Source: Candidatus Latescibacterota bacterium (GTDB lineage: Bacteria > Latescibacterota > UBA2968 > GCA-2709665). From it: a DNA stretch of 64,000 nucleotides. This document shows, in pieces, positions 25,983-48,594 of this stretch. The notes below the pieces were generated by a model. It made no database searches and was not told the DNA's origin. It worked only from the letters and a program-made list of their open reading frames with translations. Location of the stretch: NCBI GenBank assembly GCA_965237675.1, contig OZ250150.1:3744001-3808000 (forward strand). Direction: 5' to 3'. The number at the start of each line of letters is the position of its first letter. Position 1 is the stretch's first letter. A program made the position numbers and the translations under genes.

Positions 25983-27212
25983 ATGAACCGGCTGCTGCTT
26001 CTGATTCCGACAACGACCTATCGCACTCACGCTTTCATGGCCGCCGCCGCGTTGCTCGATGCAGCGGTGGTGGTGGGAACCGACCGCCGTCAGGCGCTGG
26101 AAAGTCAGATACCTGGAAGTACGCTGGCGCTGGACTTTGCAAGGCCCGCAGCCGCCGTGGAGGAGATTGTCGCTTTTTCGAAGGCGTACCCAATCCGGTC
26201 GGTGGTGGGCGTGGATGATAAGACCGTCCTGATCGCCGCGATGGCATGCAGGGCACTCGGACTTCCGCACAATTCGGTTGCGTCCGTCCGTGCGTCCCGG
26301 TACAAACACGTAATGCGCCAGATGCTTGCTGAAACAGGCCTGCCCTCTCCGGGGTTCAGGCTTTTTTCAATTTCGGAAGATCCGGAGGTGGCCGCCACAG
26401 AGGCGAAATATCCCTGTGTGTTGAAACCCGTGTATCTGTCCGCCAGCCGCGGCGTCATCCGCGCGAACGAAAGCGGGGAATTCGTGACGGCTTTCAACCG
26501 GATTCTGCGGTTGATTTCGGAGTCTGCCCACGATGCGCCTGAAGGCGGAGATTGCATTCTGGTGGAGGACTACATACCAGGCGAGGAGGTGGCGTTGGAG
26601 GGATTGCTGGTGGAGGGAGAGTTACGGACCCTCGCCTTGTTCGACAAACCGGATCCGCTCCGCGGGCCGTATTTTGCCGAGACACTGTACGTAACGCCCT
26701 CCCGGCTGCCCGAATCCACGCAGACACAGATCCGTGAGACCGCGCAGAGGGCCGCGCGTGCCCTTGGGCTGGGCGTGGGGCCCGTGCATGCCGAGTTGCG
26801 GCTGAATAGACGCGGCGTCTACGTCGTGGAAATCGCAGCGCGGTCCATCGGCGGGCTGTGTTCGCGTGTTTTACGTTTTGGCGCCGGCGCGTCGCTGGAA
26901 GAGCTGATTCTACGCCAGGCAACGGGGAACGCTCCGGGCGACTTGACGAGGGAAAATACCGCGGCCGGCGTGATGATGCTGCCGGTGCCGAAGCCGGGAA
27001 TTCTGCGGTCGGTGCAGGGGTTGGAACGTGCACGGTGCGTACGTGGAATTGTTGAGGTCGTGATGACCATTCCCCTGGATCAGCCTGTACAACCGCTGCC
27101 CGAGGGCGACCGGTATCTGGGCTTCATCTTCGCACGCGAAGAGACACCCGTGGCGGTGGAAGCGGCCCTTCGCGAGGCCTACCGCCGTCTCGGGGTGGTC
27201 ATCGAGGGATGA
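25983..27212 (+). CDS. ATP-grasp domain ligase (L-amino-acid-ligase-like)
   Basis: YPCVLKP, SASRGVIR, LVEDYIPGEE, GPVHAELR, VVEIAARSIGG; GGAGGAG RBS. Confidence 0.88.
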   Translation: MNRLLLLIPTTTYRTHAFMAAAALLDAAVVVGTDRRQALESQIPGSTLALDFARPAAAVEEIVAFSKAYPIRSVVGVDDKTVLIAAMACRALGLPHNSVASVRASRYKHVMRQMLAETGLPSPGFRLFSISEDPEVAATEAKYPCVLKPVYLSASRGVIRANESGEFVTAFNRILRLISESAHDAPEGGDCILVEDYIPGEEVALEGLLVEGELRTLALFDKPDPLRGPYFAETLYVTPSRLPESTQTQIRETAQRAARALGLGVGPVHAELRLNRRGVYVVEIAARSIGGLCSRVLRFGAGASLEELILRQATGNAPGDLTRENTAAGVMMLPVPKPGILRSVQGLERARCVRGIVEVVMTIPLDQPVQPLPEGDRYLGFIFAREETPVAVEAALREAYRRLGVVIEG

Positions 27213-27289
27213 TAGGGTGGCATTCAATCCGACGGGAGCCTGATCGGATTGCCCTGCGTCATTCCTTTAGCGACGTGCTTCCCGTTCTT

Positions 27290-27323
27290 CCAATCAGACA
27301 AGAGCAAACTGCTCTTCGGTTGG
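27290..27323 (-). promoter_or_regulatory. Candidate bacterial SECIS element
   Basis: mRNA UGA-GCGGAG-CCAA-CCG-AAGAGC-AGUUU-GCUCUU-GUCUGA-UUGG. It has a 6-bp upper stem, a 5-nt loop with G at position 2, a lower CCAA/UUGG stem, and 19 nt between the UGA and the loop. Confidence 0.7.
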
Positions 27324-28703
27324 CTCCGCTCAGCAGTACCAGGGCTCGGTGAGGCGGGGAAGGGATTGGCGGTTCGAGTCAATACCGGAATCGAACTCCG
27401 GGGCCGGGCGGCCCAACAGGTGGTGGAGGTACGACCGGATTCTATGGAAAATTTCTCGCCGGCTGGTGTCCTGATTCTGAAGCCGTGTGACCAACCGGGT
27501 GAGTTCGTGTTGGAGCCGATCCAACCGTACATCCGGATGTGCCCACGGATATGACAGGGTTTCGGGTGCGAAGGGTTCCACCAGGTCCCGAATCTGGGCA
27601 AGGTCCAGGAGTCTTGAGCCTTTGGGGATGAGCAGCCGTATCGTGAGCTGTACGGGAGAGACGTTCTCGATCAGGTCAAGGCCCGCGAGGGTGTCCAGAA
27701 AGCCGGCATAGTGCTCCATGGTGGCCCAGGGCGTGAACGGGATGAAGGTCGGATTCATTACGAGTTCGTGTCGTCGAAAGAGATGCACGACTTCGATGAA
27801 GTCGTCGACTGTATGGCCCTTGTCCAACCGCGCGAGGACCCGGTCGTCGAGGGACTCGACGGCGGTCGTGACAATCGCGCACCCGGTATCTTTGAGGAGG
27901 GGCAGATAACGGCTATACCCTAGCAGATGTTCGATTTTGACGGTGATGTCGTAGGTGACATCGGGAAATGTTTCGTGGAGCCTTTTTAAAATCGGTATGG
28001 CGTGGCCGATACCGTTGAAGAAGTCGGGATCACCAAACGTGATGTGACCGGCCCCCGCGGCGACCTGTTTCGCAATGTCGTCCAGCACGGTCTCCGGTTG
28101 CACAATACGGAATCTGCCCCTGTACACGGGCACCACGGGACAATGGCGACAGAGATGTTTGCAACCTCGGCTGGCCTCCGTATAGCCGACGGTTGTGAGA
28201 TGTCCGTCCTCTGTGGATAGTCGCGCGTATCGGGAAAGGTCCGGCAGGCCTGTCCGGTCGGGCGGAAGAAACCGCAGCCTGGCCAGGGAAACGACGGGCT
28301 CTTCCTGATCCGGGGTGGCGCTCGAGGCCTCTTGCAGACGCCTGCAGAGTTGAAGCAGTCCGTTTTCGAATTCTCCGCCGAGAATGGTCTGGGCGCCCAC
28401 GCTTCGCAGGAAGGATTCGTTCACGGATGCATAGAGCCCATAGAAACAGAGGTGGGCGTTGGCATTCTGTTCGCGGGCTCTTAAGGCAAGCGGTACGGCA
28501 AGTCGCGTTGCCGTGTGCATTGGCACGTAGAATGCTACCAGATCGGCGTCCCGAACGGCCTCGTCAGGAAAATCGTCTATTGAAACGTCAGCCAGGACAA
28601 CGTGGATGCCCGCCCTCCGCAACCATCCTGCCGGCGAGGCCAGACCGAATGGCTGACGACCCAATTCGTAGGTGGACACGAGCACGACTTTGAATGGACG
28701 CAA
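27294..28703 (-). CDS. CUAEP-tail radical SAM selenoprotein (B12-binding-like N-domain plus radical SAM), Sec at TGA 27330-27332
   Basis: CxxxCxxC motif SRGCKHLCRHCP. Reading through the TGA gives ...LTEPWYC-U-AEPTEEQFALV-stop(27294), the CUAEP/CCAEP tail. A hairpin lies directly 3' of the UGA. Confidence 0.88.
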
Positions 28704-28736
28704 TGGGGAGATGGTAGGCAGCCCTTGGTCATCCTG

Positions 28737-28785
28737 AAAAAAACGGCAGACACGGGGGCGGCCCTCACGAAGTCTGCCGTTTTTT
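28737..28785 (-). terminator. Rho-independent terminator after nfuA (potentially bidirectional)
   Basis: AAAAAACGGCAGAC...GTCTGCCGTTTTTT perfect inverted repeat with A/T tracts on both sides. Confidence 0.8.
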
Positions 28786-28796
28786 GTAAGCTGTTG

Positions 28797-29381
28797 TTAT
28801 TTTGAGGACTGGTAGTACGGGTTCGTACCACCCGCGTGTTCGGTCACGTCGAGGATCTCTTCAATTTCGGGCACGGCCTCCTTGATGAGGACTTCGACAC
28901 CCTGTTTGAGCGTGACATCCACCATGCCGCAACCCTGGCATCCTCCGCCGAACTGGATGTACGCTTTATTGTCCTTTACGTCGATCAACGAGATATGACC
29001 ACCGTGCATGGCAACGCCGGGGTTGATCTTCTCGTCGATGATGTTCTGGATCTTCTCTGCAGTGGTGCCTTTCAGATGCGAGGGAACCTTGTTGGGATTC
29101 TCTATCTTGAAACCTCTTCCCATCAGGCTGTCCACAAAGTCCAGGATGATGTCCTGGGCATACGGGGCGCTTTCCTGGCCGACGTAGACATTGAACCCGT
29201 CGAACGGGGTGACGTCGTCGTCTTCGTTTTCCTGCCCGTCGGCGACAAAGCCGAGTCGGTAGTTGGCCTGCAGAGGCGATACCGCCTCTGCTTTGACACG
29301 AACGCCAACGATGGCCGACTCCTGGTTCCGGATAAGGTTGACGACCTCCTTCTGCGCGGCTTCGGTTACGGTGATGTTCAT
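28797..29381 (-). CDS. nfuA: Fe-S biogenesis carrier NfuA
   Basis: Degenerate A-type N-domain (ITVTEAAQ...GFKIENPN) plus an Nfu domain INPGVAMHGG...GGGCQGCGMVDVTLKQGVE...DVTEHAGGTNPYY. Confidence 0.93.
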   Translation of the reverse strand: MNITVTEAAQKEVVNLIRNQESAIVGVRVKAEAVSPLQANYRLGFVADGQENEDDDVTPFDGFNVYVGQESAPYAQDIILDFVDSLMGRGFKIENPNKVPSHLKGTTAEKIQNIIDEKINPGVAMHGGHISLIDVKDNKAYIQFGGGCQGCGMVDVTLKQGVEVLIKEAVPEIEEILDVTEHAGGTNPYYQSSK

Positions 29382-29421
29382 ATCGACCTTCCCCTTAGAG
29401 AGGTGTGCTTTGCCAGGGCGG

Positions 29422-29916
29422 TCAAGACTGAAGCGCCACTGTCGGTCTTGCAGGATGTTCGCGGTCTATTTTCTCCTGAATTTTCATCAGCGCGAACAAC
29501 AGGTCTTCAGGCCGGGGCGGGCAGCCCGGCACGTAGATATCCACCGGCAAGAACTGATCGACGCCCTGAACAAGCGTATACGTATTGAAAACGCCTCCGG
29601 ACGATGCGCAGGCGCCCATCGAAATCACCCACTTCGGATCCGGCATCTGATCGTAGATCTTCTTGAGAACCGGCATCATCTTGATCGATATCCGACCTGA
29701 TACAATGAGCAAGTCGGACTGCCGTGGCGAGAACCGCACAGCTTCCGCGCCGAAGCGAGCCATGTCGAAGCGTCCGGAGAGCGTGGCCATCATTTCGATG
29801 GCGCAGCAAGCCGTGCCGAATGGCATTGGCCAGAGGGATGATTTCCGCGCCCAGTTAATCATTTTGGACAGAGTGGTTGTGAAAACGTTATCGCCAAGGC
29901 CCGTCTCAAGTCCCAT
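29422..29916 (-). CDS. nuoB: Orphan NADH-quinone oxidoreductase subunit B homologue (second copy) among the suf genes
   Basis: [46 protein letters not shown]; all four N2-cluster Cys ligands are present. Confidence 0.92.
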
Positions 29917-30019
29917 TGATCACCTCTGCAGAAGGGTTGGAAACGTCACGTGAGATGTACGTCGCCGGCGAAGCGTCCACGACGTACCGACCGGTTGGCA
30001 ACCCGCCCGCGGCGTTTTG

Positions 30020-30499
30020 CTAACCCGAAACCTGAATCAGCTCGTCCGTCACGTTCTGCAAACAGGCATCCATGGCCTGTTCTTCTCCCAGCAGATCATT
30101 CAGTGTAACGCGGCTCAGCAGCTGATCGATCATGGACTGTACCGAGGTCCACAGCGATCGTATCGAACAGTCTACGGAGTGCGTACATAGTAATTCCCGG
30201 CCAGCGTGTTCCTCGCAGAATTCCGGTGTGAACAGTCGACCGCCGAGTGCGGTCAGTACGTCGCCGACCACAATCAGGTCAGCAGATTGCGCGAGTCTGT
30301 ACCCTCCGGCCTGTCCTCGAACGCTTTCGACGAATTCCCCCAGCCGCAGAAGACGCATCAGCTTGGCGACATTTGGGATGGAGAGGCCTTCAACCTGGCT
30401 GATCTCAGATATGGAGAGGCCGCCGCCGGTTTCTCTCTGCCTGCGGCCAATCTGAAGCAGGCACCGAAGCCCGTATTCTTCCCCGGCGCTCAATTTCAT
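30020..30499 (-). CDS. Rrf2 family Fe-S-sensing transcriptional regulator
   Basis: EEYGLRCLL, winged HTH VESVRGQAGGYRLA, and a Cys/His cluster FCEEH...LCTHSVDCSIRSLW. Confidence 0.92.
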   Translation of the reverse strand: MKLSAGEEYGLRCLLQIGRRQRETGGGLSISEISQVEGLSIPNVAKLMRLLRLGEFVESVRGQAGGYRLAQSADLIVVGDVLTALGGRLFTPEFCEEHAGRELLCTHSVDCSIRSLWTSVQSMIDQLLSRVTLNDLLGEEQAMDACLQNVTDELIQVSG

Positions 30500-30640
30500 G
30501 GCGCTATAGCTTTCTTGGATGGGTTGGACGTCTGATTGAATCCATCTGTTCGGCTAAACGGCTCCATGGATCCGGAAAGTCCGCGTCGTCGGCCTCGGCA
30601 CCCGCGACGGTGGGGGGTGTGGCGCGGTTACGGGTTCCGA

Positions 30641-31150
30641 CTAAAACAGTCCGAGCTCGAGTCTTGCTGCTTCGGACATCATCTCCGGGTTCCACGGCGG
30701 ATCGAAGGTCAGATCCAGGTTGACGTCTCGGACACCGGAAACCGAGCGGGTGACGCTTTCAACCTGCCCGGGCAGGATACCCGCGGCCGGACATGCGGGG
30801 GAGGTCAAAGTCATTTTAACGTAGGTCATCCCGGAGGGTTCGACCTTGACTTCGTATATGAGGCCGATATCGTAGATGTTGATCGGAATCTCCGGATCGA
30901 AAACCGTGCGATGGGCGGCGATGATGTTATCTCTGACGCCTTCGGTGTTTATCGAGTTTTCGGTTTCGGCCGCGGCTGCGGCCGCTTCGGCCATCTCTTG
31001 CTTTTCTTCCTTGCTTGCGGCGGCGTGCGCCGTCAGCGCGCTGATGTCGACGGGATTCGCCTCGTCTGCCGCGTTTGTATTCGACTCGTCGCTTGGAGGC
31101 GAATCGTCTTCTTTGTTCCTGTACAGTCGGTTCAGCAGTCGGTTCAGCAC
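30641..31150 (-). CDS. sufT: SUF system Fe-S assembly protein SufT (DUF59/MIP18)
   Basis: VFDPEIPINIYDIGLIY, MTLTSPACP, FDPPWNPEMMSEAARLELG. Confidence 0.92.
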   Translation of the reverse strand: MLNRLLNRLYRNKEDDSPPSDESNTNAADEANPVDISALTAHAAASKEEKQEMAEAAAAAAETENSINTEGVRDNIIAAHRTVFDPEIPINIYDIGLIYEVKVEPSGMTYVKMTLTSPACPAAGILPGQVESVTRSVSGVRDVNLDLTFDPPWNPEMMSEAARLELGLF

Positions 31151-31173
31151 GATGGATTCCTCCCGTTAGACGC

Positions 31174-31629
31174 CTACTCGGTGGTCACAGGCAATTCGCG
31201 TTTCTCAAGTGCTGCCACAAGGGTGTGCCACGCCAGGGTTGCGCATTTGATGCGCACAGGGAACTCTCTTACGCCCGAAAAAACGGCCAGTTTGCCGATA
31301 CCGTCGGTGACGGGTTGGGTCGAAACATCGCTGGTGACCAGGTCGCGGAACTTTCCGAAGAGCGATTGTGCTTCCTGAAGGGTCCGTCCCTTGACCGCGT
31401 CGGTCATCAGAGATGCCGACGCCTTGGAGATGGCACATCCGGCGCCTTGAAAAGCGATATCTGCAATGCGGTTGCCGTCGATTTTCACGAAGAGGTTGAA
31501 ATGGTCGCCACACAACGGGTTGTACCCCTCGGACGTTCGATCCGCGCCGGTCATCGACCGGAAGTTGCGCGGACTCCGATTGTGGTCCAGAATGACCTGT
31601 TGGTAGAGTTCTCGGAGATCGGACATCAT
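31174..31629 (-). CDS. sufU: SUF system NifU-like sulfur-transfer protein SufU
   Basis: LYQQVILDH, GYNPLCGD, GAGCAISKASAS, FPVRIKCATL. Confidence 0.95.
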   Translation of the reverse strand: MMSDLRELYQQVILDHNRSPRNFRSMTGADRTSEGYNPLCGDHFNLFVKIDGNRIADIAFQGAGCAISKASASLMTDAVKGRTLQEAQSLFGKFRDLVTSDVSTQPVTDGIGKLAVFSGVREFPVRIKCATLAWHTLVAALEKRELPVTTE

Positions 31630-32906
31630 CGGAAGACCTCATGGGTCGTGTGCAACGCCCGTACGAGCGTGTCGATGTCTTCCCGCGTATTGTAAAACGC
31701 TGTGGCCGCTCGGGTCGTCGCGGGAATATTGAAGTGCCGCATCACAGGTTGGGCGCAATGGTGTCCGGCGCGGACTGCCACGCCTTGCTGATCAACGATG
31801 GTGCCGACGTCATGCGGGTGGACACCGTCCAGAACGAAGGAGATGACACTGACTTTCTCTTCAGCCGTTCCTATGATTCTCAGCCCTGATATCTCGGAAA
31901 GGGCGTCGGTGGCATAGGCCAGCAGGTCGTTCTCGTAAGCGGCGGCCGCTTCCAGGTCGATCCGGTTCAAATAGTCGATGGCGGCGCCGAGCCCGATACA
32001 GCCGGCAATATGGGGTGTGCCGGCCTCGAAGCGGGCGGGTGGATCGGCATAGGTGGTTTTTTCAAGCGAAACTTCACGAATCATGCCGCCTCCGCCCTTG
32101 TAGGGCGGCATCGATTCAAGCAGTTCACTTCTCCCGTAAAGAACCCCGATGCCGGTCGGACCGTATAGCTTGTGCCCCGAAAAGGCGTAGAAGTCACATC
32201 CGAGTGCCTGAACGTCCACTTTGAAATGGGGAACCGCCTGTGCTCCATCCAGGAGTACGGGGATACTGCGTTCATGTGCCAGTTCCACGATTGCGGCTAC
32301 CGGATTGAGGGTGCCAAGGACGTTCGACACGTGTACGACGGCCACAAGTTTCGTACGCTCGTTCAGCCGTCTTTCAACCTCGTCGATCTGCAACTCGCCC
32401 CGGTCATTAATGGGTATCACACGCAGTTTTGCACCTTTTTCCTCGCAGAGCATCTGCCACGGCACGATGTTCGAGTGGTGTTCCATGGCGGAAACGAGGA
32501 TTTCGTCACCGGCTTCCACGTTTTTGCGGCCGAATGTCTGGGCAACGAGGTTAATGCTGTCCGTGGTGCCGCTGGTGAAGATGATTTCTCTGTCGTGGGC
32601 CGCGTTCAGAAACTGACGGACCTTGCTGCGTGCCCCTTCGTAGGAATCCGTTGCAAGCTGGCTGAGAAGATGAACCCCGCGGTGCACGTTGGCGTTGGCC
32701 GTTTCGTAAAAAACCTCAAGCACGTCCAGCACATCTCTGGGTTTCTGGGTTGTTGCCGCGTTGTCAAGGTAGACCAGCGGGTTGTCCCGTATGGATTGGC
32801 TCAGTACCGGAAAATCCATCCGGATACGGTAGGGATCGAAAGGACCCGCGCGTTCAATGAGCGGGCAGGAAAGCCGTTCGGCCAGGGCATGCGCTGTCAG
32901 GCTCAT
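31626..32906 (-). CDS. sufS: Cysteine desulfurase SufS
   Basis: YLDNAATTQKP, EHHSNIVPW, PLP lysine in SGHKLYGPTG, catalytic RAGHHCAQP; ATGA overlap with the sufD stop. Confidence 0.96.
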   Translation of the reverse strand: MSLTAHALAERLSCPLIERAGPFDPYRIRMDFPVLSQSIRDNPLVYLDNAATTQKPRDVLDVLEVFYETANANVHRGVHLLSQLATDSYEGARSKVRQFLNAAHDREIIFTSGTTDSINLVAQTFGRKNVEAGDEILVSAMEHHSNIVPWQMLCEEKGAKLRVIPINDRGELQIDEVERRLNERTKLVAVVHVSNVLGTLNPVAAIVELAHERSIPVLLDGAQAVPHFKVDVQALGCDFYAFSGHKLYGPTGIGVLYGRSELLESMPPYKGGGGMIREVSLEKTTYADPPARFEAGTPHIAGCIGLGAAIDYLNRIDLEAAAAYENDLLAYATDALSEISGLRIIGTAEEKVSVISFVLDGVHPHDVGTIVDQQGVAVRAGHHCAQPVMRHFNIPATTRAATAFYNTREDIDTLVRALHTTHEVFR

Positions 32907-34228
32907 GGGATTTTCCCGACGTTTCGCGCCTGTTCGAATCTGTCCATTACAATCCGTTCGAGATAGTCCCGGACGGAATCGGGTTTGATTCTGTTCAGGA
33001 TGTCGACCGCGAATGCATGGACAAGGATGCGCTGTGCGGCCGCGTGACTTAACCCGCGAGAGCGCAGGTAAAAGACCGCGTTCTGATCGAGTTGCCCTAT
33101 TGTTGCGCCGTGGGAGCACTTCACCTGGTCGGCGTAGATTTCGAGTTGGGGTTTGGTATTGATGCCGGCGCCGTCGGAGATGAGCAGGCTCTGGCTGCTC
33201 TGGTAGGCGTCGGTCTCCTGAGCCTTCCGGTGGACGTGTATCTTGCCGCGAAACACGCCACTGGATCTGCCGCCGAGAATACCCTTGTAGAGTTCGTGGC
33301 TGTTGCAATTCGGCTCGGCGTGTTCGATCAGGGTGTGGTTATCGATATGCTGCTCTTTGTCGGTCAAATAGAAGCCGTTGACCGTGGCTTCACCGGCTTC
33401 GCCGGCCAGCAACGCGTTGACTTCGTTGCGGACCAGTTTGCCGCCCAGAGAAATGGCGTGTGTGGACAGATTGCTCCCGGCGCCCTGACGGGCTTGCATG
33501 GTGGCGATATGAAACGCGTCCGGGCTCTCGAGTTCCAGTTTGTAGTGATCCACCACCGCGCGGTCGCCGGCGATGACTTCGGTGACCGCGTTTGTGAAAT
33601 AGGCGCCGCCACCCGTGTAGGTTTCGATAATCGTGGCCTGGCTGTCTTCTTCGGCCAGGACAAGCGTGCGGGGGTGTGAAATGGACGGGTCGCCTGAAGG
33701 GATTGAAACAAACAGGATGTGAATGGGAGATTCGACAGCCGTGCCCCGTGGGACATATACACAGGCACCATCCTGGAGAAATGCGGTGTTGAGCGCGACG
33801 AAGGCGTGCTCCTCGTACGCGGCGTGCCGCGCAATATGGGTTTCCACCCATTCGGGTTCGAAGGCCATCAATTCGGACAGACTGCACACCCGCACGCCGG
33901 GCGGGAGGTTCCCCGTGCGGGAATATTCGGCATTGTAGAATCCATTGACGAAAACCAGGCGTGTGGCAGCCAGTTCCTGGATGGGATCTTCCGTTTTCCA
34001 GACCTGACGTACATCCTCTGCTGTCGTTGTGCGAAACGGAGTCCGGACAAGCGGAGCAACATTTGTGTGGAACCACGCTTCGTCCCTTGTGCCGGGAAAC
34101 CCGAGTTCCGCAAATCGTTCAATTGCAGACTTGCGAAGTGCGTGCAAGGGCGCGGCGAACCGTCCGTTCAGGCTCTCTTCAAAAGCGGTAAATGCCGACA
34201 GATAGGCGTGTGTGCCTCTGTTCCCCAT
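32903..34228 (-). CDS. sufD: Fe-S cluster assembly protein SufD
   Basis: FVALNTAF, ELYKGIL, TKPQLEIYADQVKCSHGATIGQLD, FYLRSRG; AAGGAGG RBS. Confidence 0.95.
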   Translation of the reverse strand: MGNRGTHAYLSAFTAFEESLNGRFAAPLHALRKSAIERFAELGFPGTRDEAWFHTNVAPLVRTPFRTTTAEDVRQVWKTEDPIQELAATRLVFVNGFYNAEYSRTGNLPPGVRVCSLSELMAFEPEWVETHIARHAAYEEHAFVALNTAFLQDGACVYVPRGTAVESPIHILFVSIPSGDPSISHPRTLVLAEEDSQATIIETYTGGGAYFTNAVTEVIAGDRAVVDHYKLELESPDAFHIATMQARQGAGSNLSTHAISLGGKLVRNEVNALLAGEAGEATVNGFYLTDKEQHIDNHTLIEHAEPNCNSHELYKGILGGRSSGVFRGKIHVHRKAQETDAYQSSQSLLISDGAGINTKPQLEIYADQVKCSHGATIGQLDQNAVFYLRSRGLSHAAAQRILVHAFAVDILNRIKPDSVRDYLERIVMDRFEQARNVGKIP

Positions 34229-34244
34229 GGTGCGGCGACCTCCT

Positions 34245-35018
34245 TTAAGGACGGGCGAATCGGGCCGTCGACTCTTCACGAATCCAATCGTAGCCTTCCG
34301 CTTCGAGCTTCTGGGCGAGTTCCTTGCCACCCGATTTGACAATCCGGCCCTTCAGAAGAACATGCACGGCGTCCGGCACGATGTAGTCCAGCAGCCGCTG
34401 GTAGTGGGTAACCACGAGAACCGCGCTCCCGGGGTTTTTCCGGTGAAGCGTGTTCACGCCGTTGGCCACGATCTTCAGGGCGTCGATATCCAAACCGGAG
34501 TCCGTTTCGTCCATGATAGCCAGCCGGGGTTCGAGCATTGCCATCTGGAATATTTCGTTTCGTTTTTTTTCACCGCCGGAGAAGCCTTCGTTGACCGCCC
34601 GATTGAGAAACGACTGGTCCATTTCCACCAGTTCCAGCTTCTCCCTGGACAGAGCGAGAAAATCCATGGCGTCGAGTTCATCCTGGCCGCGTGCTTTTCG
34701 AAGTTCATTGAGCGCAGTCCGAAGAAAATAGGCGCTGTTGACGCCGGGAATTTCCACCGGGTACTGAAAAGCCATGAAGACGCCGGCCTGGGCGCGTTCT
34801 TCCGGTTCCAATTCCAACAGGTCTTCGCCTTCGTAGAGAATCTCGCCGCGGGTCACTTCGTATTCTTCTCGGCCGGCCAATACCTGGGCAAGGGTGCTCT
34901 TTCCGGATCCGTTGGGACCCATAATGGCGTGGATTTCGCCGGCGTTGATTTTCAGGTCGATGCCGGTAAGGATGCGGGTGCCTTCGACGCTTGCGTGGAG
35001 GTCGTTGACTTCGAGCAT
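34245..35018 (-). CDS. sufC: Fe-S cluster assembly ATPase SufC
   Basis: [51 protein letters not shown]. Confidence 0.97.
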
Positions 35019-35159
35019 GCGTGTTCCTTATTTATAGACTGTCCTTTGTTGCAGTCGTGAGGCGCTGTCTGGCCGGGCGTTTTTTTAAAGGCCTCCGGCG
35101 ACGCCTTCGATGTGTTCGCAGATTCTTTCTGTGTCGCCTGGGCGCGTTCCCCGTGCGTG

Positions 35160-36626
35160 TTATCCCACGCTGCCTTCCAGGCTGATGCCAAGCAACTTCT
35201 GGGCCTCGACGGCGAATTCCATCGGGAGTTCGGCCAGCACTTCCCTGCAGAAGCCGTTGACGATCATGGAGACGGCGTCTTCGGTGGAGATGCCGCGCTG
35301 GTTACAGTAGAAAATTTGATCTTCACCGATTTTTGAGGTGGAGGCTTCGTGCTCTACCTGGGAGGTGGTGTTTCTCACGTCGATGTACGGGAAGGTGTGA
35401 GCCCCGCAACGGTCGCCGATGAGCATGGAGTCGCACTGGGTAAAGTTTCGGGCGTTCGCTGCGCCTTTTAGTACCTGCACCCGGCCCCGATAGGTATTCT
35501 GACCGTTCTTGGCGGAGATGCCTTTCGAAATGATGGTGCTGCGCGTGTTTTTACCCAGATGAATCATCTTCGTGCCCGTATCGGCCTGTTGGCGCCCGGT
35601 GGTGACGGCCACGGAGTAGAATTCGCCAACGGAGTTGTCGCCCTGGAGAATGCAGCTGGGATATTTCCAGGTGATGGCCGATCCGGTTTCAACCTGCGTC
35701 CAGGAGATTTTCGCGTTGGCGCCGCGGCAGGCGCCGCGTTTGGTGACAAAGTTGTAGATCCCGCCAACACCGTTTTCGTCTCCCGGATACCAGTTCTGAA
35801 CGGTCGAGTATTTGATCTGCGCGTTGTCGAGGGCAACCAGTTCCACGACGGCGGCATGGAGCTGATTCTCGTCTCTCTTGGGGGCCGTGCAACCTTCGAG
35901 ATACGATACGTAAGCCCCGTCTTCAGCGACGATCAGCGTCCTCTCGAACTGGCCTGTATTGGCTGCGTTGATTCGGAAGTACGTGGACAGTTCCATGGGG
36001 CACCGCACACCGCGGGGGATGTAGCAGAAGGACCCGTCCGTAAAGACCGCGGAGTTGAGAGCGGCGAAGAAATTGTCATTGTAGGGCACGACCGAACCGA
36101 GGTATTTCTTCACTATTTCGGTGTGTTCTTGCACGGCTTCCGAGAACGAGCAGAAAATGATGCCCAAGTCAGACAGTTTGTCTTTAAACGTCGTGGCCAC
36201 GGAAACGCTGTCGAAAACGGCGTCGACCGCCACGCCGGCAAGTATTTTCTGCTCTTGGAGAGGGATGCCCAATTTCTCATACGTGCTCAGGATTTCAGGG
36301 TCAACCTCGTCGAGGCTCTGGAGCGCGTCCTGGTTTTTGGGTGCGGAGTAATATATAATGTTCTGATAGTCGATGTCCGGATAGTCGACCATGGCCCACT
36401 GGCGGCTTTGCTTGCGACGGGTCGGATCATCCATCTTCAGCCAGTTGCGATAGGCTTTAAGGCGCCATTGCAATAGCCAGTCGGGTTCGCTTTTCTTCTC
36501 GGAAATAAACGCGATAATGTCTTCATTCAGGCCAGGGGGCGCGGCGTCCGTTTCGATGTCCGTTACGAAACCGTATTTGTACTCTCTGGTCGCCAGTTCT
36601 TCAATTTCCTGCACTTCCTCGCTCAT
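35160..36626 (-). CDS. sufB: Fe-S cluster assembly protein SufB
   Basis: [56 protein letters not shown]...EGSVG. Confidence 0.97.
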
Positions 36627-36708
36627 CGGGTGCTCCTTCCATCGCTTGAAAGGGCATTAGTTTTGTTATTGTTTGTGCGACTCGACGATAACGTTTCCTG
36701 AATTCAAG

Positions 36709-36741
36709 CTTAACATACCCAATCCGTATCCATGTGTCAAG
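36709..36741 (-). promoter_or_regulatory. suf promoter overlapped by an imperfect inverted repeat (candidate Rrf2 operator)
   Basis: Minus strand TTGACA(36740-36735)-N17-TATGTT(36717-36712). The arms CTTAACATA and TGTGTCAAG are 7/9 complementary. Confidence 0.6.
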
Positions 36742-36835
36742 ATTAAAAATGTACAAAAAAGTCAAGTTTGCCGGATCCGTTATCACGAGGACTGGCTCAA
36801 CCATGGGGAACGAATGCGCGAGGGGTGCTTTTCTC

Positions 36836-36865
36836 TTGACAGATGCGCAAGGATTTCGCTAATTT
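36836..36865 (+). promoter_or_regulatory. Putative sigma70 promoter of the nuo operon, divergent from suf
   Basis: TTGACA-N18-TAATTT, about 100 nt upstream of nuoA. Confidence 0.4.
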
Positions 36866-36963
36866 ATCGCCGTCAGTTCGGAAAGCGGATAACGATAGAT
36901 TGAAGCCCTGCGCAACGTCGGAGTTTCTTTTCATGGCGTTGCTCCTCGGGAGGTCCCGAAACG

Positions 36964-37383
36964 ATGCTGGATCAATATGCCAACGTTCTGATATTCCTGG
37001 GGATCGGCGCTCTCTTCGTCGTGGTCAATCTCTTCATCGGCAGTCTGATTCGGCCCCGGAATCCCAGCGCCGAGAAACTGAGTACATACGAGTGCGGTGA
37101 AGAACCCGTCGGAGGTTCCTGGATTCAATTCAATATTCGGTTCTACGTGATTGCCCTGGATTTCATCATCTTCGACGTGGAAGTGGTATTGCTTTATCCG
37201 TGGGCGGTGGTCGCCAACGACTTCGGCTGGTATGGCTTCGGCGCCATGTCGATTTTCGTGGTGGTGCTCCTGCTTGGCTTGGCGTATGCCTGGCGGAAGG
37301 GCGCCCTCGAATGGGTGCGTCCCAAGCTCTCGGGGCGGCAGGCGCCGGTAGCCGCTCCCGCCGGCGGAGGCCACGTTGCCTGA
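36964..37383 (+). CDS. nuoA: NADH-quinone oxidoreductase subunit A
   Basis: KLSTYECGEEP, FNIRFYVIAL, FIIFDVE, YAWRKGALEW; GGAGG RBS. Confidence 0.95.
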   Translation: MLDQYANVLIFLGIGALFVVVNLFIGSLIRPRNPSAEKLSTYECGEEPVGGSWIQFNIRFYVIALDFIIFDVEVVLLYPWAVVANDFGWYGFGAMSIFVVVLLLGLAYAWRKGALEWVRPKLSGRQAPVAAPAGGGHVA

Positions 37384-37523
37384 TCCGCCCGCCCGTTCCG
37401 GTCACACAGAAGGCGTGTGGGTTGATTTACGCCATTTTTTCAATGACCTGATATCAATCCGTTGCCCTTCACGGTGTTCGGATTCCATCGTCTGCTTGGA
37501 CGCTTCAGGAGGCATGCCTACTC

Positions 37524-38009
37524 ATGGGAAAGCTCACAGGTCGTTTCCAGGATAATGTAATCGTGACGTCGGTCGATTATTTCGTCAATTGGGCCCGTCT
37601 GTCCTCGCTCTGGCCGATGACGTTCGGATTGGCGTGTTGCGCCATAGAAATGATGGCCACGGGGGCGTCGCGGTACGATTGGTCGCGGTTGGGGATGGTC
37701 CCGCGCGCCACACCCCGGCAGTCTGATTTGATGATTGTGGCTGGCACGGTTACGTTGAAAATGGCCAGTCGCGTGAAGAAATTGTACGACCAGATGGCTG
37801 AGCCCAGGTACGTCATGTCCATGGGCTGTTGCGCCACGTCGGGCGGACCCTATTGGCAACACGGGTACCATGTATTGAAGGGTGTCGACCGGGTTGTGCC
37901 GGTTGACGTCTATGTCCCCGGCTGTCCTCCTAGGCCGGAGGCCTTGTTGGAGGGCGTACTAAAACTCCAGGACAAGATCCGAATCGATTCCATTGCGAGA
38001 GTGAGTTAG
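37524..38009 (+). CDS. nuoB: NADH-quinone oxidoreductase subunit B
   Basis: [46 protein letters not shown]. Confidence 0.96.
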
Positions 38010-38053
38010 GCAGCGTCCGCAAGTTCGCGCCGGACCGGATGTGGGGGCAATCA

Positions 38054-38524
38054 ATGACGCCGCAGGAGATTTTTGATCGTCTAAAGGAGAAATTCGCCGA
38101 CCGGGTTCTGGATCTGGCCGAAAACGTGGATCCGTTTGTTCGGGTAAAGGCCGACGCCATACAGGAAATTGGCCTGTATTTGCGAGACGACGAGACAATG
38201 CGGTTCGAGTCGCTGATGTGTCTGAGCGGGGTGGATTATCCGGAACACCTGACGGTGGTCTACCATCTGTTTTCGACGTCCCGCGGTCACAAGATAACGT
38301 TAAAAGCGGAGGTGGGAAGAGACGAACCCCACGTGCCAACGGTCGAAGGTGTATGGCGGGTGGCGAACTGGCACGAACGCGAGACGTACGATATGTTCGG
38401 GATTGTCTTTGACGGGCACAGCGATCCGCGCCGGATTCTGTGTCCCGACGACTGGGAAGGGTGGCCCCTGCGCAAGGATTACCAGGTGCAGGAATATTAC
38501 CGCGGCATCAGAGTTGAGGTATAA
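38054..38524 (+). CDS. nuoC: NADH-quinone oxidoreductase subunit C
   Basis: LSGVDY, ANWHERETYDMFGI, DWEGWPLRKDY. Confidence 0.95.
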   Translation: MTPQEIFDRLKEKFADRVLDLAENVDPFVRVKADAIQEIGLYLRDDETMRFESLMCLSGVDYPEHLTVVYHLFSTSRGHKITLKAEVGRDEPHVPTVEGVWRVANWHERETYDMFGIVFDGHSDPRRILCPDDWEGWPLRKDYQVQEYYRGIRVEV

Positions 38525-38527
38525 ATT

Positions 38528-39727
38528 ATGGCAGAGATTTCACGGGGGGCGGCCGCGGTTGCGGTGGAACGGCCAGGACTGCCGCCGGTTGCGGAAACGG
38601 GGGACGATAACTTAAACAGCGAGTTGATGACAATCAATATGGGACCCCAGCATCCAAGCACGCACGGGGTGCTGCGTTTGGAGATCAAGACCGACGGAGA
38701 GATTGTTGAGGAGGCAAAACCCCATATTGGTTATCTTCATCGTTGCTTTGAGAAACACGCCGAGAATCTGCCGTATCAGCAGGTGATACCGTTTACGGAT
38801 CGAATGGATTACCTCGCGGCGATGAACAACAATATGGGGTACGTACTGGCCGTTGAGAAACTCCTGGGACTCGAGATTCCGGAGCGAGTGGAGTATATCC
38901 GGATCATTATGTGCGAGTTGAACCGGATTGCCAGCCACCTGGTTTCCTTTGGGACCTACGGAATGGATATTGGGGCGTTTACGCCCTTTTTGTTTGCCTT
39001 CCGGGAGCGGGAAGATATTTTCGACCTGTTTGAAATGACGTGCGGGGCCCGGATGTTGTACAATTACATCTGGGTGGGCGGAGTTTCCCACGACCTGCCG
39101 CCGGGTTTCGTGGAACGCTGCCGGCATTTCCTGGGCGCGTTCAAGGGCAAAGTGAAAGAGTATAACGACCTGCTGACGTACAATAAAATTTTCATTGAAC
39201 GCACCGCCAACGTTGGTGTGTTGTCGCGCGAGTTGGCGTACAGTCACAACATTACCGGACCGAATCTGCGCGGTTGCGGGGTGCAATGGGACCTGCGTCG
39301 GGACGAACCGTATTCAATTTACGACCGTTTCGAATTTGACGTGCCCTGCGGCAAAGGGGAGATGGGGACCCTGGGGGATTGCTGGGATCGCTACATCGTG
39401 CGGATTCGTGAGATGGAGGAAAGCGCCAGGATTGTGTCTCAGGCGCTCGATCAGTTGCCCGAAGGGGGAGACGTACAGGCGGCGGTCCCCAGAAACGTGC
39501 GGCCACCGAAAGACACGGAGTGTTATGTTCGAAGTGAAAATCCCAGGGGCGAACTGGGAATATACGTGATCAGCGACGGTTCCAACGTGCCGTACCGGGT
39601 GCGCGTGAAATCGCCCTGTTTTACCGTGATGAGTGTTTTTGACGAACTCGCCAGGGGCCATTATCTGGCCGATATCATTGCAATTATCGGGAGCATCGAT
39701 ATCGTACTGGGCGAGATCGACCGTTAG
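38528..39727 (+). CDS. nuoD: NADH-quinone oxidoreductase subunit D
   Basis: NMGPQHPSTHGVLRL, GYLHRCFEK, ELNRIASHL, ENPRGELG, DIVLGEIDR; no NiFe-binding CxxC motifs. Confidence 0.96.
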   Translation: MAEISRGAAAVAVERPGLPPVAETGDDNLNSELMTINMGPQHPSTHGVLRLEIKTDGEIVEEAKPHIGYLHRCFEKHAENLPYQQVIPFTDRMDYLAAMNNNMGYVLAVEKLLGLEIPERVEYIRIIMCELNRIASHLVSFGTYGMDIGAFTPFLFAFREREDIFDLFEMTCGARMLYNYIWVGGVSHDLPPGFVERCRHFLGAFKGKVKEYNDLLTYNKIFIERTANVGVLSRELAYSHNITGPNLRGCGVQWDLRRDEPYSIYDRFEFDVPCGKGEMGTLGDCWDRYIVRIREMEESARIVSQALDQLPEGGDVQAAVPRNVRPPKDTECYVRSENPRGELGIYVISDGSNVPYRVRVKSPCFTVMSVFDELARGHYLADIIAIIGSIDIVLGEIDR

Positions 39728-39748
39728 GTGTGGTCCGAGGAGTACCTT

Positions 39749-40921
39749 ATGCCCGAGTTTGCGGAGGCTCTTGTAAATCAGGTTGGTTTTTTGAGTGCTG
39801 TGCCGATCGGTCTGGTGTCCCTTGCGTTGGGTCTGCTCGCCGGGATCGTGGTTGTTACGCTCGTTGCCGTGCTGGGCCTGATTATGGTGTATATGGAAAT
39901 GAAGATATCGGCCCATATCCAGGACCGATTGGGGCCGATGCGTACCGGCGGGTGGCACGGCTGGGCTCAGCCGCTTGCCGACGGTGTCAAGCTCCTGTTG
40001 AAGGAGGACATCATTCCGGCGGCGGCAGATAAATGGCTCTTCATTCTCGCGCCCCTTCTGGTTTTTTCCGGCGCTCTCGCTGTCTTCGTGTGTATCCCGT
40101 TCGGCGGCAACCTGATCGTGAGCAATCTGGACATTGGTATTTTTTATATTCTGGCCATTTCGTCGTTGGGAGTACTGGGCATTCTCATGGCCGGGTGGGC
40201 GTCCAATAACAAGTGGTCTCTCCTCGGCGCCATGCGTTCGGCCGCACAGGTGGTGAGCTATGAAATCCCGGTGGCCATGGCTTTTTTAAGTGTAATCCCG
40301 CTTGTGGGTTCCCTGAGCATGCAGGACCTGGTCGCCGCGCAGTCCGGGTCGTTGTATCACTGGTTCGTTTTTCGAAATCCATTTACGTTTCTTGCATTCA
40401 TCCTTTACTTTATCGCCTCTCTCGCAGAGGTCAACCGGACCCCGTTCGATATACCCGAGGCCGAATCCGAACTGGTGGCGGGATATCACACCGAATACAG
40501 CGGCATGCGCTTCTCGTTCTTTTTCGTGGCGGAATACGCGGCGATGGTTGGCGTGAGTATGGTTGGCGCGGTTGTATTTCTGGGTGGCTGGCAGGCGCCC
40601 TGGGGTGGTTCGTTTCCGGCTGGTCCCATCTGGATGATCGGCAAGGGCCTCTTCCTGGTGGCGGTGCAGATCTGGATTCGATGGACGCTTCCCCGGTTGC
40701 GCGTCGATCAGTTGATGTTCGTGGGCTGGAAGGTACTGACGCCGGCGGCGTTTCTGTGTCTGCTCGGGTCGGTCGTATGGCACTTCGCCGCTCCAGGATG
40801 GCTGCAGGAACTCGCGAAGGTTGGATTGATGGGCGTGATGGCCGTTGTTCTTATCTTCCTGTTGCGGTCCGCCGCTCAGGGATTGATGCAGGGGCGGACA
40901 CAGCGGGCCCGGGCAGCATGA
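39749..40921 (+). CDS. nuoH: NADH-quinone oxidoreductase subunit H
   Basis: [56 protein letters not shown]. Confidence 0.96.
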
Positions 40922-40993
40922 TTCGCGGGCCAATTGCGTACGTATTCGAGCCATAGTCAGGATCAACTGGACGACTCCTCCAAAGGTGGTGCT

Positions 40994-41482: not shown

Positions 41483-41588
41483 ACTGCGGCGGCCCCGTCA
41501 TTTCAAGGCGCCGGGAACATGGGAGCCAGCCTTGCAGACGAAGGCGGTCGTCTATTGATGGCCCGGGGCTTCCGGAAATGGTTGTTAT

Positions 41589-46380: not shown

Positions 46381-46454
46381 ACGCGAGATAGACAGTCCGA
46401 TTCTGCCGGGCTTCAACGCGATTCGGGCCCATCACCGATGGGAGGAACGACCTT

Positions 46455-48555: not shown

Positions 48556-48594
48556 GACGCTTCCTGCGGTGTGAGGGAACGGACGGACCGACCG

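What the first reader, a model, noticed from the sequence alone, without database searches (positions are those of the whole stretch)
28797..36626. Orphan NuoB embedded in a SUF gene string between the Rrf2 regulator and NfuA
Seen in sequence: the co-oriented order is sufB-sufC-sufD-sufS-sufU-sufT-rrf2-nuoB2-nfuA, followed by a terminator. nuoB2 keeps all N2 [4Fe-4S] ligands (ACC, GAC, PGCPP) but has no nuoA, nuoC or nuoD neighbours. It is clearly diverged from the nuoB of the adjacent complex I operon (SGRISIKM / [10 protein letters not shown] versus AGTVTLKM / [12 protein letters not shown]), so it is not a recent duplicate. Established knowledge: NuoB normally works only in complex with NuoD/C. 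Inference: this may be a stand-alone NuoB co-opted as an Fe-S carrier, scaffold or sensor, or a stress-induced replacement subunit delivered with NfuA (NfuA matures complex I clusters in E. coli). Either would be an unrecognised SUF accessory component.
Basis: partly seen in the sequence, partly recalled or inferred. Interest (0 to 1): 0.75.

Follow-up and report, generated by a model that had tools for sequence, protein, structure and literature searches.

The report
Complex I nuoB inside SUF operon
A normal-looking gene for the iron-sulfur subunit B of respiratory complex I has been moved into the tail of the iron-sulfur cluster assembly (SUF) operon in one narrow group of uncultured bacteria; it is an unusual gene placement, not a new kind of SUF component.

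Summary
On the minus strand the order is sufB-sufC-sufD-sufS-sufU-sufT-rrf2-nuoB2-nfuA, followed by a terminator. NuoB2 has all four N2 cysteines and is 54% identical to the NuoB1 of the nuoABCDHIJKLMN operon (no nuoEFG) that starts 7 kb away on the other strand.

NuoB2 does not look like a new SUF accessory.
- In the ML tree it groups with NuoBs that sit in ordinary nuoA-B-C-D-E-F-G-H operons of Latescibacterota and Poribacteria (75-81% identity). An AU test did not prove the nesting.
- It matches 61 of 61 columns that are at least 90% conserved in 69 in-operon NuoBs.
- It shows no rate acceleration.
- Its dN/dS is 0.02, as low as NuoB1's.

The suf linkage occurs in 4 of the 80 loci examined, all in one clade with 96-99% identity. 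Seven other loci carry solitary nuoB genes in unrelated contexts.

Best reading: a canonical complex I subunit whose gene was relocated and is now co-transcribed with rrf2 and nfuA. I could not check whether it serves a 14-subunit enzyme encoded elsewhere (favoured) or swaps into the adjacent 11-subunit enzyme. Interest is modest.

The parts
35160..36626 (-). sufB, first gene of the operon
   Evidence: NF008773 908.8 bits (cut-off 717), PF01458
34245..35018 (-). sufC ATPase
   Evidence: TIGR01978 365.5 bits (cut-off 212.8)
32903..34342 (-). sufD (start codon uncertain; the listed ORF overlaps the end of sufC)
   Evidence: TIGR01981 283.1 bits (cut-off 222), PF01458 and PF19295
31626..32903 (-). 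sufS cysteine desulfurase
   Evidence: TIGR01979 613.4 bits (cut-off 475.1), PF00266
31174..31629 (-). sufU sulfur-transfer protein
   Evidence: TIGR01994 158.6 bits (cut-off 92.5)
30641..31150 (-). sufT-like DUF59 protein with a low-complexity N-terminal extension
   Evidence: PF01883 57 bits (cut-off 23.5); TIGR02945 132.7 bits, just under its cut-off of 143.4
30020..30499 (-). Rrf2-family regulator with three cysteines (C95, C106, C111)
   Evidence: PF02082 90.5 bits; TIGR00738 86.5 bits (cut-off 73.3); the best specific model is the SUF regulator TIGR02944 at 75.2 bits, below its cut-off of 110.65
29422..29916 (-). nuoB2: complex I subunit B of the type found in nuoEFG-containing operons, with its own GAGGTG ribosome-binding site
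   Evidence: PF01058; NF005012 239 bits (cut-off 116). Best solved relative is Thermus Nqo6 at 217 bits. 0 of 61 mismatches at conserved in-operon columns. dN/dS 0.02. The roughly 35 nt before the ATG are conserved in L001-L004.
28797..29381 (-). nfuA-like carrier: cysteine-free A-type N-terminal domain plus Nfu C-terminal domain with CQGC
   Evidence: PF01521 and PF01106; sequence; TIGR03341 155.9 bits, below its cut-off of 269
28736..28786 (-). intrinsic terminator hairpin with U7 tail, marking the end of the transcription unit
   Evidence: -27.6 kcal/mol, z -4.25; the hairpin is conserved in L001-L004, with differences in the inner stem
36712..36740 (-). promoter-like TTGACA-17-TATGTT upstream of sufB, inside a near-invariant block of the suf/nuo intergenic region
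   Evidence: Consensus scan (the number of such hits in the region equals the chance expectation); the block is invariant in window, L001, L002 and L004
36964..47984 (+). context: divergent 11-gene complex I operon nuoA-B1-C-D-H-I-J/K-L-M-N without nuoEFG
   Evidence: Pfam; the same neighbourhood is present in L001, L002 and L004

Best explanation
**What it is.** nuoB2 encodes an ordinary N2-cluster subunit B of respiratory complex I. It is the orthologue of the nuoB that sits in nuoA-B-C-D-E-F-G-H... operons in related Latescibacterota, Poribacteria and allies. In one narrow lineage (the window and L001-L004) the gene was moved out of that operon and inserted between rrf2 and nfuA, at the tail of a SufU-type suf operon.

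**What is shown.**
- Its family membership and its N2 cysteine ligands.
- Its grouping with in-operon NuoBs in the ML tree.
- The absence of rate acceleration and the presence of very strong purifying selection.
- No terminator between rrf2, nuoB2 and nfuA, and a conserved terminator after nfuA.

**What is inferred.**
- It is transcribed from the suf promoter together with the Rrf2 regulator and NfuA, so its synthesis is matched to Fe-S supply.
- It receives its [4Fe-4S] cluster, plausibly from NfuA.
- It then assembles with NuoD, NuoC, NuoH and NuoA in a membrane complex I.
- Most likely that complex is a 14-subunit-type enzyme whose other genes lie elsewhere in the genome without a nuoB of their own (simple relocation).

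**Odds.** I put about 0.8 on 'it is a working complex I subunit' and about 0.5 on the specific claim that its partners are an elsewhere-encoded 14-subunit set.
For: **Family and ligands.** PF01058, NF005012 and TIGR01957 all score above their cut-offs. The best solved relative is Thermus Nqo6 (217 bits), and the four cysteines align with it.

**Context in relatives.** I kept the 80 best loci out of 547 confirmed relatives. In 69 of them the NuoB2-type gene lies next to nuoA, nuoC or nuoD. In the long loci a 3.5-7 kb gap separates nuoD from nuoH. That gap holds NuoE, NuoF and NuoG in both loci I checked, L013 and L005.

**Tree.** NuoB2 falls in a 39-row clade with Latescibacterota and Poribacteria in-operon NuoBs. 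It is separated from NuoB1 by a branch with 99 support.

**Constraint.**
- It has 0 of 61 mismatches at columns that are at least 90% conserved in 69 in-operon NuoBs. At the 80% level it has 1 of 77, against a leave-one-out median of 3 for in-operon proteins. NuoB1 has 12 and 19 mismatches at the same two levels.
- It has 0 of 12 NuoB1-like states at type-discriminating columns.
- Its path length from the clade ancestor is 0.31-0.40, against a median of 0.48 for in-operon rows.
- Its dN/dS is 0.020-0.029 at dS 0.9-1.0, the lowest in the suf string and equal to NuoB1.

**Precedent for scattered nuoB.** Solitary nuoB genes of this type occur in non-nuo contexts in 7 of the 80 loci.

**Sister lineages.** Sister proteins at 81-92% identity share a longest-contig length with a NuoCD fusion: P0025 with P0154 at 12,151 bp, P0013 with P0246 at 59,815 bp, and P0039/P0041 with P0191 at 5,782,071 bp. 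This suggests they are still linked to nuoCD.

**Operon membership.** The rrf2-nuoB2 spacer is 103 bp here and only about 40 bp in L004, with only the ribosome-binding region conserved. There is no hairpin with a T-run before nfuA's end. The terminator after nfuA is conserved.
Against: - The partner genes were not found. The 64-kb window holds no nuoC, nuoD, nuoE, nuoF or nuoG of the 14-subunit type, and I could not scan the rest of the genome.
- In two protein searches with 14-subunit-type NuoD and NuoCD, no listed hit carried the contig lengths seen for window-lineage NuoB2 proteins, such as 5,453,092 bp. This check is insensitive.
- nuoB2 lies only 7 kb from another complex I operon, in the divergently transcribed neighbour, in all 3 related loci that reach that far. 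That would be a coincidence under simple relocation.
- An AU test does not reject a tree in which the suf-linked proteins, the context-unknown proteins and NuoB1 sit outside all 76 in-operon and solitary rows (p = 0.355). The nesting therefore rests on the ML tree and on identities, not on a significant test.
- Co-transcription and cluster delivery by NfuA are inferences.
Confidence: 0.5

Rival explanations
1. **Alternative B subunit of the adjacent enzyme.** The lineage has lost the rest of the 14-subunit operon and kept only its nuoB. NuoB2 is made with the SUF machinery and NfuA, and it replaces or supplements NuoB1 in the neighbouring 11-subunit complex. This is an isoform switch of the N2-bearing subunit.
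For: - nuoB2 sits 7,021-7,132 bp from nuoA1, in the operon that shares a conserved 337-bp control region with the 11-gene nuo operon. This holds in the window and in 3 of the 3 related loci that extend far enough.
- Selection on NuoB2 is very strong although it has no adjacent partner genes.
- In Marinimicrobia locus L041, the orthologous 11-gene-type operon runs nuoA-nuoC-nuoD... with no nuoB. It lies directly upstream of a 14-gene-type operon that has one. This suggests that a 14-type NuoB can serve an 11-type complex.
- No 14-type NuoD or NuoCD with a window-lineage contig length was listed (weak evidence).
Against: - There is no burst of change on the stem branch.
- There are 0 of 12 NuoB1-like states at type-discriminating positions. 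The Marinimicrobia NuoB shows none either, so this is weak evidence.
- The 11-gene operon already has its own intact, equally constrained NuoB1.
- The Marinimicrobia case rests on a single locus that covers the nuoA-nuoC junction, and a nuoB elsewhere in that genome is not excluded.
- Loss of the 14-subunit genes is not shown.
Confidence: 0.27
2. **The first reader's main idea.** NuoB2 works alone, outside any complex I, as an Fe-S carrier, scaffold or redox/Fe-S sensor of the SUF pathway.
For: It is embedded between an Fe-S-sensing type of regulator and an Fe-S carrier, in one transcription unit with sufBCDSUT. This arrangement is kept in four species-level genomes at synonymous divergence of about 0.9-1.0.
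Against: - It has no similarity to any carrier family; it matches only PF01058.
- Every column conserved in in-operon NuoBs is kept, including those with no obvious role in merely holding a cluster.
- There is no rate shift after relocation.
- The linkage is confined to one narrow clade, 4 of 80 loci.
- Solitary nuoB genes elsewhere sit in unrelated contexts such as an M17 peptidase, ETF-QO and mreC. Being solitary therefore does not imply a SUF role.
Confidence: 0.08
3. **Decaying leftover.** nuoB2 is a functionless remnant of a lost operon.
For: Its usual neighbours are absent.
Against: - The reading frame is intact in the window and in 4 related loci.
- dN/dS is 0.02 at dS of about 1.
- The ribosome-binding region is conserved.
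Confidence: 0.01

Closest known systems
NuoB / Nqo6 / PSST, the N2-cluster subunit of complex I (Thermus thermophilus Nqo6, PDB 2FUG/4HEA chain 6)
   Same: NuoB2 scores 217 bits against Nqo6 over residues 10-151. The tandem CC, GAC and PGCPP cysteines align. Family HMMs score above their cut-offs.
   Different: The gene is not in a nuo operon. It lies between rrf2 and nfuA in a suf operon.
In-operon NuoB of nuoA-N (nuoEFG-containing) operons in Latescibacterota, Poribacteria and 'Gemmatimonadota' MAGs (L005-L028)
   Same: Identity is 75-81%. NuoB2 shares a clade with them in the ML tree and is identical at all strongly conserved columns.
   Different: Those genes overlap nuoA and precede nuoC. 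NuoB2 has its own ribosome-binding site and SUF neighbours.
IscR (Rrf2)-controlled nfuA, and NfuA as a carrier for complex I Fe-S subunits in E. coli and P. aeruginosa
   Same: An Rrf2 gene lies upstream of an NfuA-type two-domain carrier. Passages read in PMC6084964 state that NfuA contributes to maturation of the complex I subunit NuoG and that IscR represses nfuA.
   Different: The reported client there is NuoG, not NuoB. There nfuA is monocistronic and regulated in trans, whereas here regulator, client-like gene and carrier are in one operon. Nothing was tested here.
Bacteria with two complex I gene sets or N-module-less 'C-I-like' sets (PMC12361115, section 9 read)
   Same: The window's lineage has an 11-gene set without nuoEFG, plus a second-type nuoB. 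The paper reports 415 species with sets lacking EF or EFG and 45 species with two complete sets.
   Different: That survey does not describe a nuoB inside a suf operon. In the passages I read, the words 'orphan', 'scattered' and 'dispersed' do not occur in its main text.

Membership tests
Complex I subunit B (NuoB/Nqo6/PSST; PF01058, TIGR01957, NF005012) | Family HMM scores above the curated cut-offs | tested here: met
   PF01058 scores 99.1 against 27, NF005012 239 against 116, and TIGR01957 230.5 against 142.7
Complex I subunit B (NuoB/Nqo6/PSST; PF01058, TIGR01957, NF005012) | Four cysteine ligands of cluster N2 (tandem CC, GxC, PGCPP) | tested here: met
   C37, C38, C103 and C132 are invariant in alignment A1. 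They align with the Nqo6 cysteines at a +8 offset. The Nqo6 ligand numbering C45/C46/C111/C140 is recalled, not taken from a call.
Complex I subunit B (NuoB/Nqo6/PSST; PF01058, TIGR01957, NF005012) | Residues conserved across operon-encoded orthologues are retained (no sign of a changed function) | tested here: met
   0 of 61 mismatches at columns at least 90% conserved and 1 of 77 at columns at least 80% conserved in 69 in-operon proteins. dN/dS is 0.02.
Complex I subunit B (NuoB/Nqo6/PSST; PF01058, TIGR01957, NF005012) | Gene located in a nuo operon beside nuoA and nuoC/nuoD | tested here: not met
   It is flanked by rrf2 and nfuA in the window and in L001-L004. This is a usual feature, not an obligatory one: 7 of the 80 loci also have a solitary nuoB.
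Complex I subunit B (NuoB/Nqo6/PSST; PF01058, TIGR01957, NF005012) | Physical assembly with NuoD, NuoC and NuoH, and electron transfer from N2 to quinone | not testable with these tools
   This needs biochemistry. No complex prediction was run, because a textbook pair would pass by likeness to solved structures.
SUF accessory or Fe-S carrier (A-type carriers, Nfu, SufT/DUF59) | Homology to a known carrier or scaffold family | tested here: not met
   NuoB2 matches only PF01058. The carrier domains are in the neighbouring genes.
SUF accessory or Fe-S carrier (A-type carriers, Nfu, SufT/DUF59) | Linkage to suf genes conserved across diverse taxa | tested here: not met
   4 of the 80 loci have the linkage, all in one clade at 96-99% identity. 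In the other 76 loci, the only suf-query matches within 10 kb were six weak sufC or sufS matches (23-29% identity) in five loci, none adjacent to nuoB, and there was no rrf2 or nfuA match.
SUF accessory or Fe-S carrier (A-type carriers, Nfu, SufT/DUF59) | Cluster transfer to apo-proteins | not testable with these tools
   This needs an in vitro assay.
SufU-type SUF operon (sufBCDSU) | SufB, SufC, SufD, SufS and SufU equivalogs above their cut-offs, co-oriented | tested here: met
   with the scores listed under parts.
NfuA (TIGR03341) | Degenerate A-type N-terminal domain plus Nfu C-terminal domain with CxxC, and an equivalog score above the cut-off | tested here: inconclusive
   Both Pfam domains are present. 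The N-terminal domain has no cysteine and the C-terminal domain has CQGC. The equivalog score of 155.9 is below its cut-off of 269.35.

The most novel reading that the evidence does not exclude
The lineage has discarded its 14-subunit complex I but kept that enzyme's N2 subunit as a second, SUF-co-expressed B subunit. This subunit is loaded by NfuA and swapped into the neighbouring 11-subunit, N-module-less complex. That would be an isoform switch at the terminal Fe-S cluster and quinone site, tied to Fe-S supply. The Marinimicrobia arrangement (an 11-gene-type operon with no nuoB next to a 14-gene-type operon with one) would be the same principle of one B subunit serving two enzymes.
Probability: 0.25. 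Interest if true: 0.6.

Novelty: new member of a known kind. Interest (0 to 1): 0.3.

Why it matters
If the favoured reading holds, this is a tidy natural example of a respiratory Fe-S subunit gene placed under the control of the Fe-S assembly operon, next to a carrier. It would hint that NfuA-type carriers load cluster N2. It would not add a new SUF component.

If the alternative-subunit reading holds, it would show that complex I can exchange its N2-bearing subunit. That would bear on how cluster N2 and the quinone site are tuned.

Either way the case is confined to a few uncultured sponge-associated genomes, so the practical impact is small.

Tried and rejected

2. **Matching 'longest_contig' values between protein searches.** This gave three matches for sister lineages and none for the window lineage. 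I rejected it as evidence of absence, because the query's own genome was not recovered this way.

3. **AU test.** I tested a tree that holds all 76 in-operon and solitary rows together. The result, p = 0.355, does not reject it. The alignment is short (175 columns), and the opposing group included context-unknown rows and NuoB1.

4. **Type-discriminating positions.** These are uninformative between the two complex I readings.

5. **Literature.** Four searches found nothing on a nuoB in a suf operon or on this lineage's complex I:
   - 'nuoB' with 'suf operon' (10 papers, listing seen)
   - 'nuoB' with 'nfuA' (10 papers, listing seen)
   - 'Latescibacteria' with 'complex I' and 'sponge' (3 papers, listing seen)
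   - the isolate name of L004 (0 papers)

6. **Rfam.** A scan of 26000-38000 at E <= 0.1 gave no match.

7. **Consensus terminator and promoter scan.** Hit counts equalled the chance expectation, and the scan missed the real terminator.

8. **dN/dS rows dropped.** I dropped the rows for sufD (all loci) and for nuoC in L001. My coordinates put them out of frame, giving identities of 4-22%.

10. **Collections not checked.** No genome of the lineage could therefore be scanned for the other nuo genes.

Full report
**1. What is in the sequence**

On the minus strand, Pfam and NCBIfam identify nine genes in this order:
- sufB (35160-36626)
- sufC (34245-35018)
- sufD (32903-34342, start uncertain)
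- sufS (31626-32903)
- sufU (31174-31629)
- a SufT-like DUF59 protein (30641-31150)
- an Rrf2 regulator with three cysteines (30020-30499)
- nuoB2 (29422-29916, 164 aa)
- an NfuA-type two-domain carrier (28797-29381)

The spacers are 141 bp (sufT-rrf2), 103 bp (rrf2-nuoB2) and 40 bp (nuoB2-nfuA). None of them folds into a terminator-like hairpin.

After nfuA there is a strong hairpin followed by U7: -27.6 kcal/mol, z -4.25, and 0 of 200 shuffles fold as well. The hairpin recurs in all four related loci, with sequence differences in the inner stem.

Only the roughly 35 nt before the nuoB2 start, including a GAGGTG ribosome-binding site, are conserved in the rrf2-nuoB2 spacer. In L004 that spacer is only about 40 bp.

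I infer a single transcription unit, sufBCDSUT-rrf2-nuoB2-nfuA. It would be driven from the conserved promoter-like block upstream of sufB. This is not shown.

**2. The neighbourhood**

A complete nuoA-B1-C-D-H-I-J/K-L-M-N operon runs from 36964 to 47984. It is divergent from sufB across a 337-bp spacer and has no nuoE, nuoF or nuoG. No other nuo gene is in the 64-kb window.

NuoB2 and NuoB1 are 54% identical, and both keep the four cysteines. Among solved structures, NuoB2 is closest to Thermus Nqo6 (217 bits), then to mycobacterial and E. coli NuoB. NuoB1 is closest to mitochondrial NDUFS7/PSST (209 bits).

**3. Where NuoB2 comes from**

*Homologues.* NuoB2 homologues at 74-96% identity are found in MAGs labelled Latescibacterota, Poribacteria, Gemmatimonadota and Handelsmanbacteria.

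L001, a Latescibacterota MAG, is 99% identical. I labelled all 80 loci by tblastn with the window's suf and nuo proteins:
- 4 loci (L001-L004, 96-99% identity) have the same suf-rrf2-nuoB-nfuA-rSAM arrangement. L001, L002 and L004 also show the divergent 11-gene nuo operon.
- 69 loci have the gene next to nuoA and/or nuoC/nuoD. Where the locus is long enough, a 3.5-7 kb gap lies between nuoD and nuoH.
- 7 loci have a solitary nuoB.

I checked the nuoD-nuoH gap in two loci, L013 and L005. In both it holds NuoE, NuoF and NuoG.

*The solitary genes.* These sit beside an M17 aminopeptidase (L029, L051), after ETF-QO and nuoI (L043), or near mreC and ATP synthase genes (L052). Scattered nuoB genes are therefore not rare, and they are not tied to SUF.

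*The tree.* A quick IQ-TREE run on 97 rows, rooted on the four NuoB1 sequences, separates NuoB1 from all others with 99 support. It places NuoB2 in a 39-row clade (support 82) with in-operon NuoBs of Latescibacterota (L010-L015, L027) and Poribacteria.

*Nearest sisters.* The closest sisters are proteins of unknown context at 81-92% identity. Three of them share their exact longest-contig length with a NuoCD fusion protein:
- P0025 with P0154, at 12,151 bp
- P0013 with P0246, at 59,815 bp
- P0039/P0041 with P0191, at 5,782,071 bp

This suggests they are still linked to nuoCD.

*Caveat.* An AU test does not reject a tree in which all 76 in-operon and solitary rows are held together against the suf-linked rows, the unknown-context rows and NuoB1 (p = 0.355). 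The nesting is therefore the best estimate, not a proven one.

**4. Is it still an ordinary subunit?**

Four analyses say yes.
- *Conserved columns.* NuoB2 carries the consensus residue at 61 of 61 columns that are at least 90% conserved among the 69 in-operon proteins, and at 76 of 77 columns conserved at 80% or more. That is fewer departures than the median in-operon protein (3). NuoB1 departs at 12 and 19 columns.
- *No convergence on NuoB1.* NuoB2 has none of the 12 NuoB1-specific states.
- *No acceleration.* Its path length from the clade ancestor is 0.31-0.40, against a median of 0.48 (range 0.33-0.96) for in-operon sisters.
- *Strong purifying selection.* Between the window and L002-L004, synonymous sites are near saturation (dS 0.92-1.01) while dN is 0.019-0.024, giving dN/dS 0.020-0.024. 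Against L001 the ratio is 0.029. This is the lowest in the suf string (sufB 0.046-0.074, nfuA 0.060-0.345, rrf2 0.067-0.218) and matches NuoB1 at 0.012-0.019. The sufD rows and one nuoC row were dropped as out of frame.

The gene is therefore functional. The arrangement is as old as the divergence of at least four species-level genomes. Nothing in the protein has changed since it left the operon. A protein co-opted as a free carrier, scaffold or sensor would be expected to lose constraint on its many subunit interfaces, and NuoB2 has not.

**5. Which complex does it serve?**

This is the open point. I could not test whether the genome holds a nuoB-less 14-gene operon.

*For simple relocation:*
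- the unchanged protein
- the precedent of 7 scattered nuoB genes
- from general knowledge, the need of an aerobic heterotroph for an NADH-oxidising N-module

*For the alternative, that NuoB2 is a second B subunit for the adjacent 11-subunit enzyme:*
- its conserved position 7 kb from that operon, in the divergent neighbour (3 of 3 loci that reach that far)
- the Marinimicrobia locus L041, where the orthologous 11-gene-type operon runs nuoA-nuoC-nuoD with no nuoB and is followed directly by a 14-gene-type operon with one
- the weak and insensitive failure to see a 14-type NuoD or NuoCD with a window-lineage contig length

I put 0.5 on relocation with partners elsewhere, 0.27 on the alternative-subunit reading, 0.08 on a stand-alone SUF role, and the rest on other possibilities.

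**6. Mechanism proposed**

*Shown:*
- NuoB2 is an intact, strongly constrained N2 subunit.
- Its gene lies in one terminator-bounded unit with SUF genes, an Rrf2 regulator and an NfuA-like carrier.

*Inferred:*
- The Rrf2 protein senses Fe-S status and controls the unit.
- NuoB2 is made in step with the assembly machinery and receives its [4Fe-4S] cluster from NfuA.
- It then docks with NuoD, NuoC and the membrane arm.

From passages read in PMC6084964: NfuA is reported to contribute to maturation of the complex I subunit NuoG, and IscR, an Rrf2 protein, represses nfuA in E. coli and P. aeruginosa. A regulator-carrier pair with a complex I client therefore has precedent, although NuoB as the client does not.

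The operon is of the SufU type, which I recall as usually the housekeeping Fe-S system. 'Stress-induced' should therefore not be assumed.

**7. Comparison with what is known, and novelty**

A 2025 survey (PMC12361115; passages and section 9 read) describes several complex I variants:
- complete sets
- sets lacking EF or EFG (415 species)
- fused CD or BCD
- two complete sets (45 species)
- incomplete sets

In what I read, it does not describe a nuoB in a suf operon. For PMC4758237 I saw only the search listing.

Four literature searches found no report of this arrangement. bioRxiv supplements and non-CC papers were not searched.

I file NuoB2 as a new member of a known family in an unusual, lineage-restricted gene context. 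Interest is 0.3.

Noticed in passing
window 27294-28703 (-), with 25983-27212 (+): The radical-SAM gene after the terminator matches the CUAEP/CCAEP-tail radical SAM (seleno)protein model (NF040546, 590.5 bits against a cut-off of 500). Its listed stop (TGA at 27330-27332) is followed in frame by AEP, giving ...WYC-U-AEP... when TGA is read as Sec. It is probably a selenoprotein mis-ended by standard ORF calling. An ATP-grasp L-amino-acid-ligase-like gene lies divergent to it. No SECIS element was looked for.
   Followed up: partly
L041:1-2000 and L041:9564-10915 (also L037, L040, L045): In Marinimicrobia, an operon orthologous to the window's 11-gene nuo set runs nuoA (ends 255), nuoC (273-773), nuoD (764-1909) with no nuoB. 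It is followed directly by a 14-gene-type nuoA-nuoB-nuoC operon. One nuoB may serve two complex I gene sets. Only L041 covers the nuoA-nuoC junction.
   Followed up: partly
L029:9974-11981 and L051:10001-12206 (also L020, L058); L043:7740-10435: A solitary nuoB is followed by an M17 leucyl aminopeptidase in two separately supported clades. In a Planctomycetota MAG there is an ETF-QO, nuoI, nuoB trio. These are examples of scattered complex I genes.
   Followed up: partly
L013:10471-11112 (same position in L010-L015, L027): A 213-aa phosphoribosyltransferase-domain ORF is inserted between nuoB and nuoC of the 14-gene operon in the sister Latescibacterota group.
   Followed up: no
window 36627-36963: The intergenic region shared by sufB and the divergent nuoA has two near-invariant blocks across the window, L001, L002 and L004. 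One contains TTGACA-17-TATGTT and a second TTGAC 25 nt upstream. These may be a shared operator for the Rrf2 regulator. No motif was tested.
   Followed up: partly
window 41519-42409 (+): The ORF listed here is 296 aa, and only its last 95 residues match NuoK (PF00420). No separate nuoJ ORF was scanned, so nuoJ and nuoK may be fused, or the ORF call may be joining them.
   Followed up: no
window 55310-61624 (-): A 2104-aa ORF with a SprA_N domain, a type IX secretion component. This is consistent with an FCB-group organism.
   Followed up: no
window 48130-49635 (-): A PqqD-like small protein (PF05402) lies next to a 346-aa ORF with no Pfam match, directly after nuoN. This may be a peptide-modification pair.
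   Followed up: no
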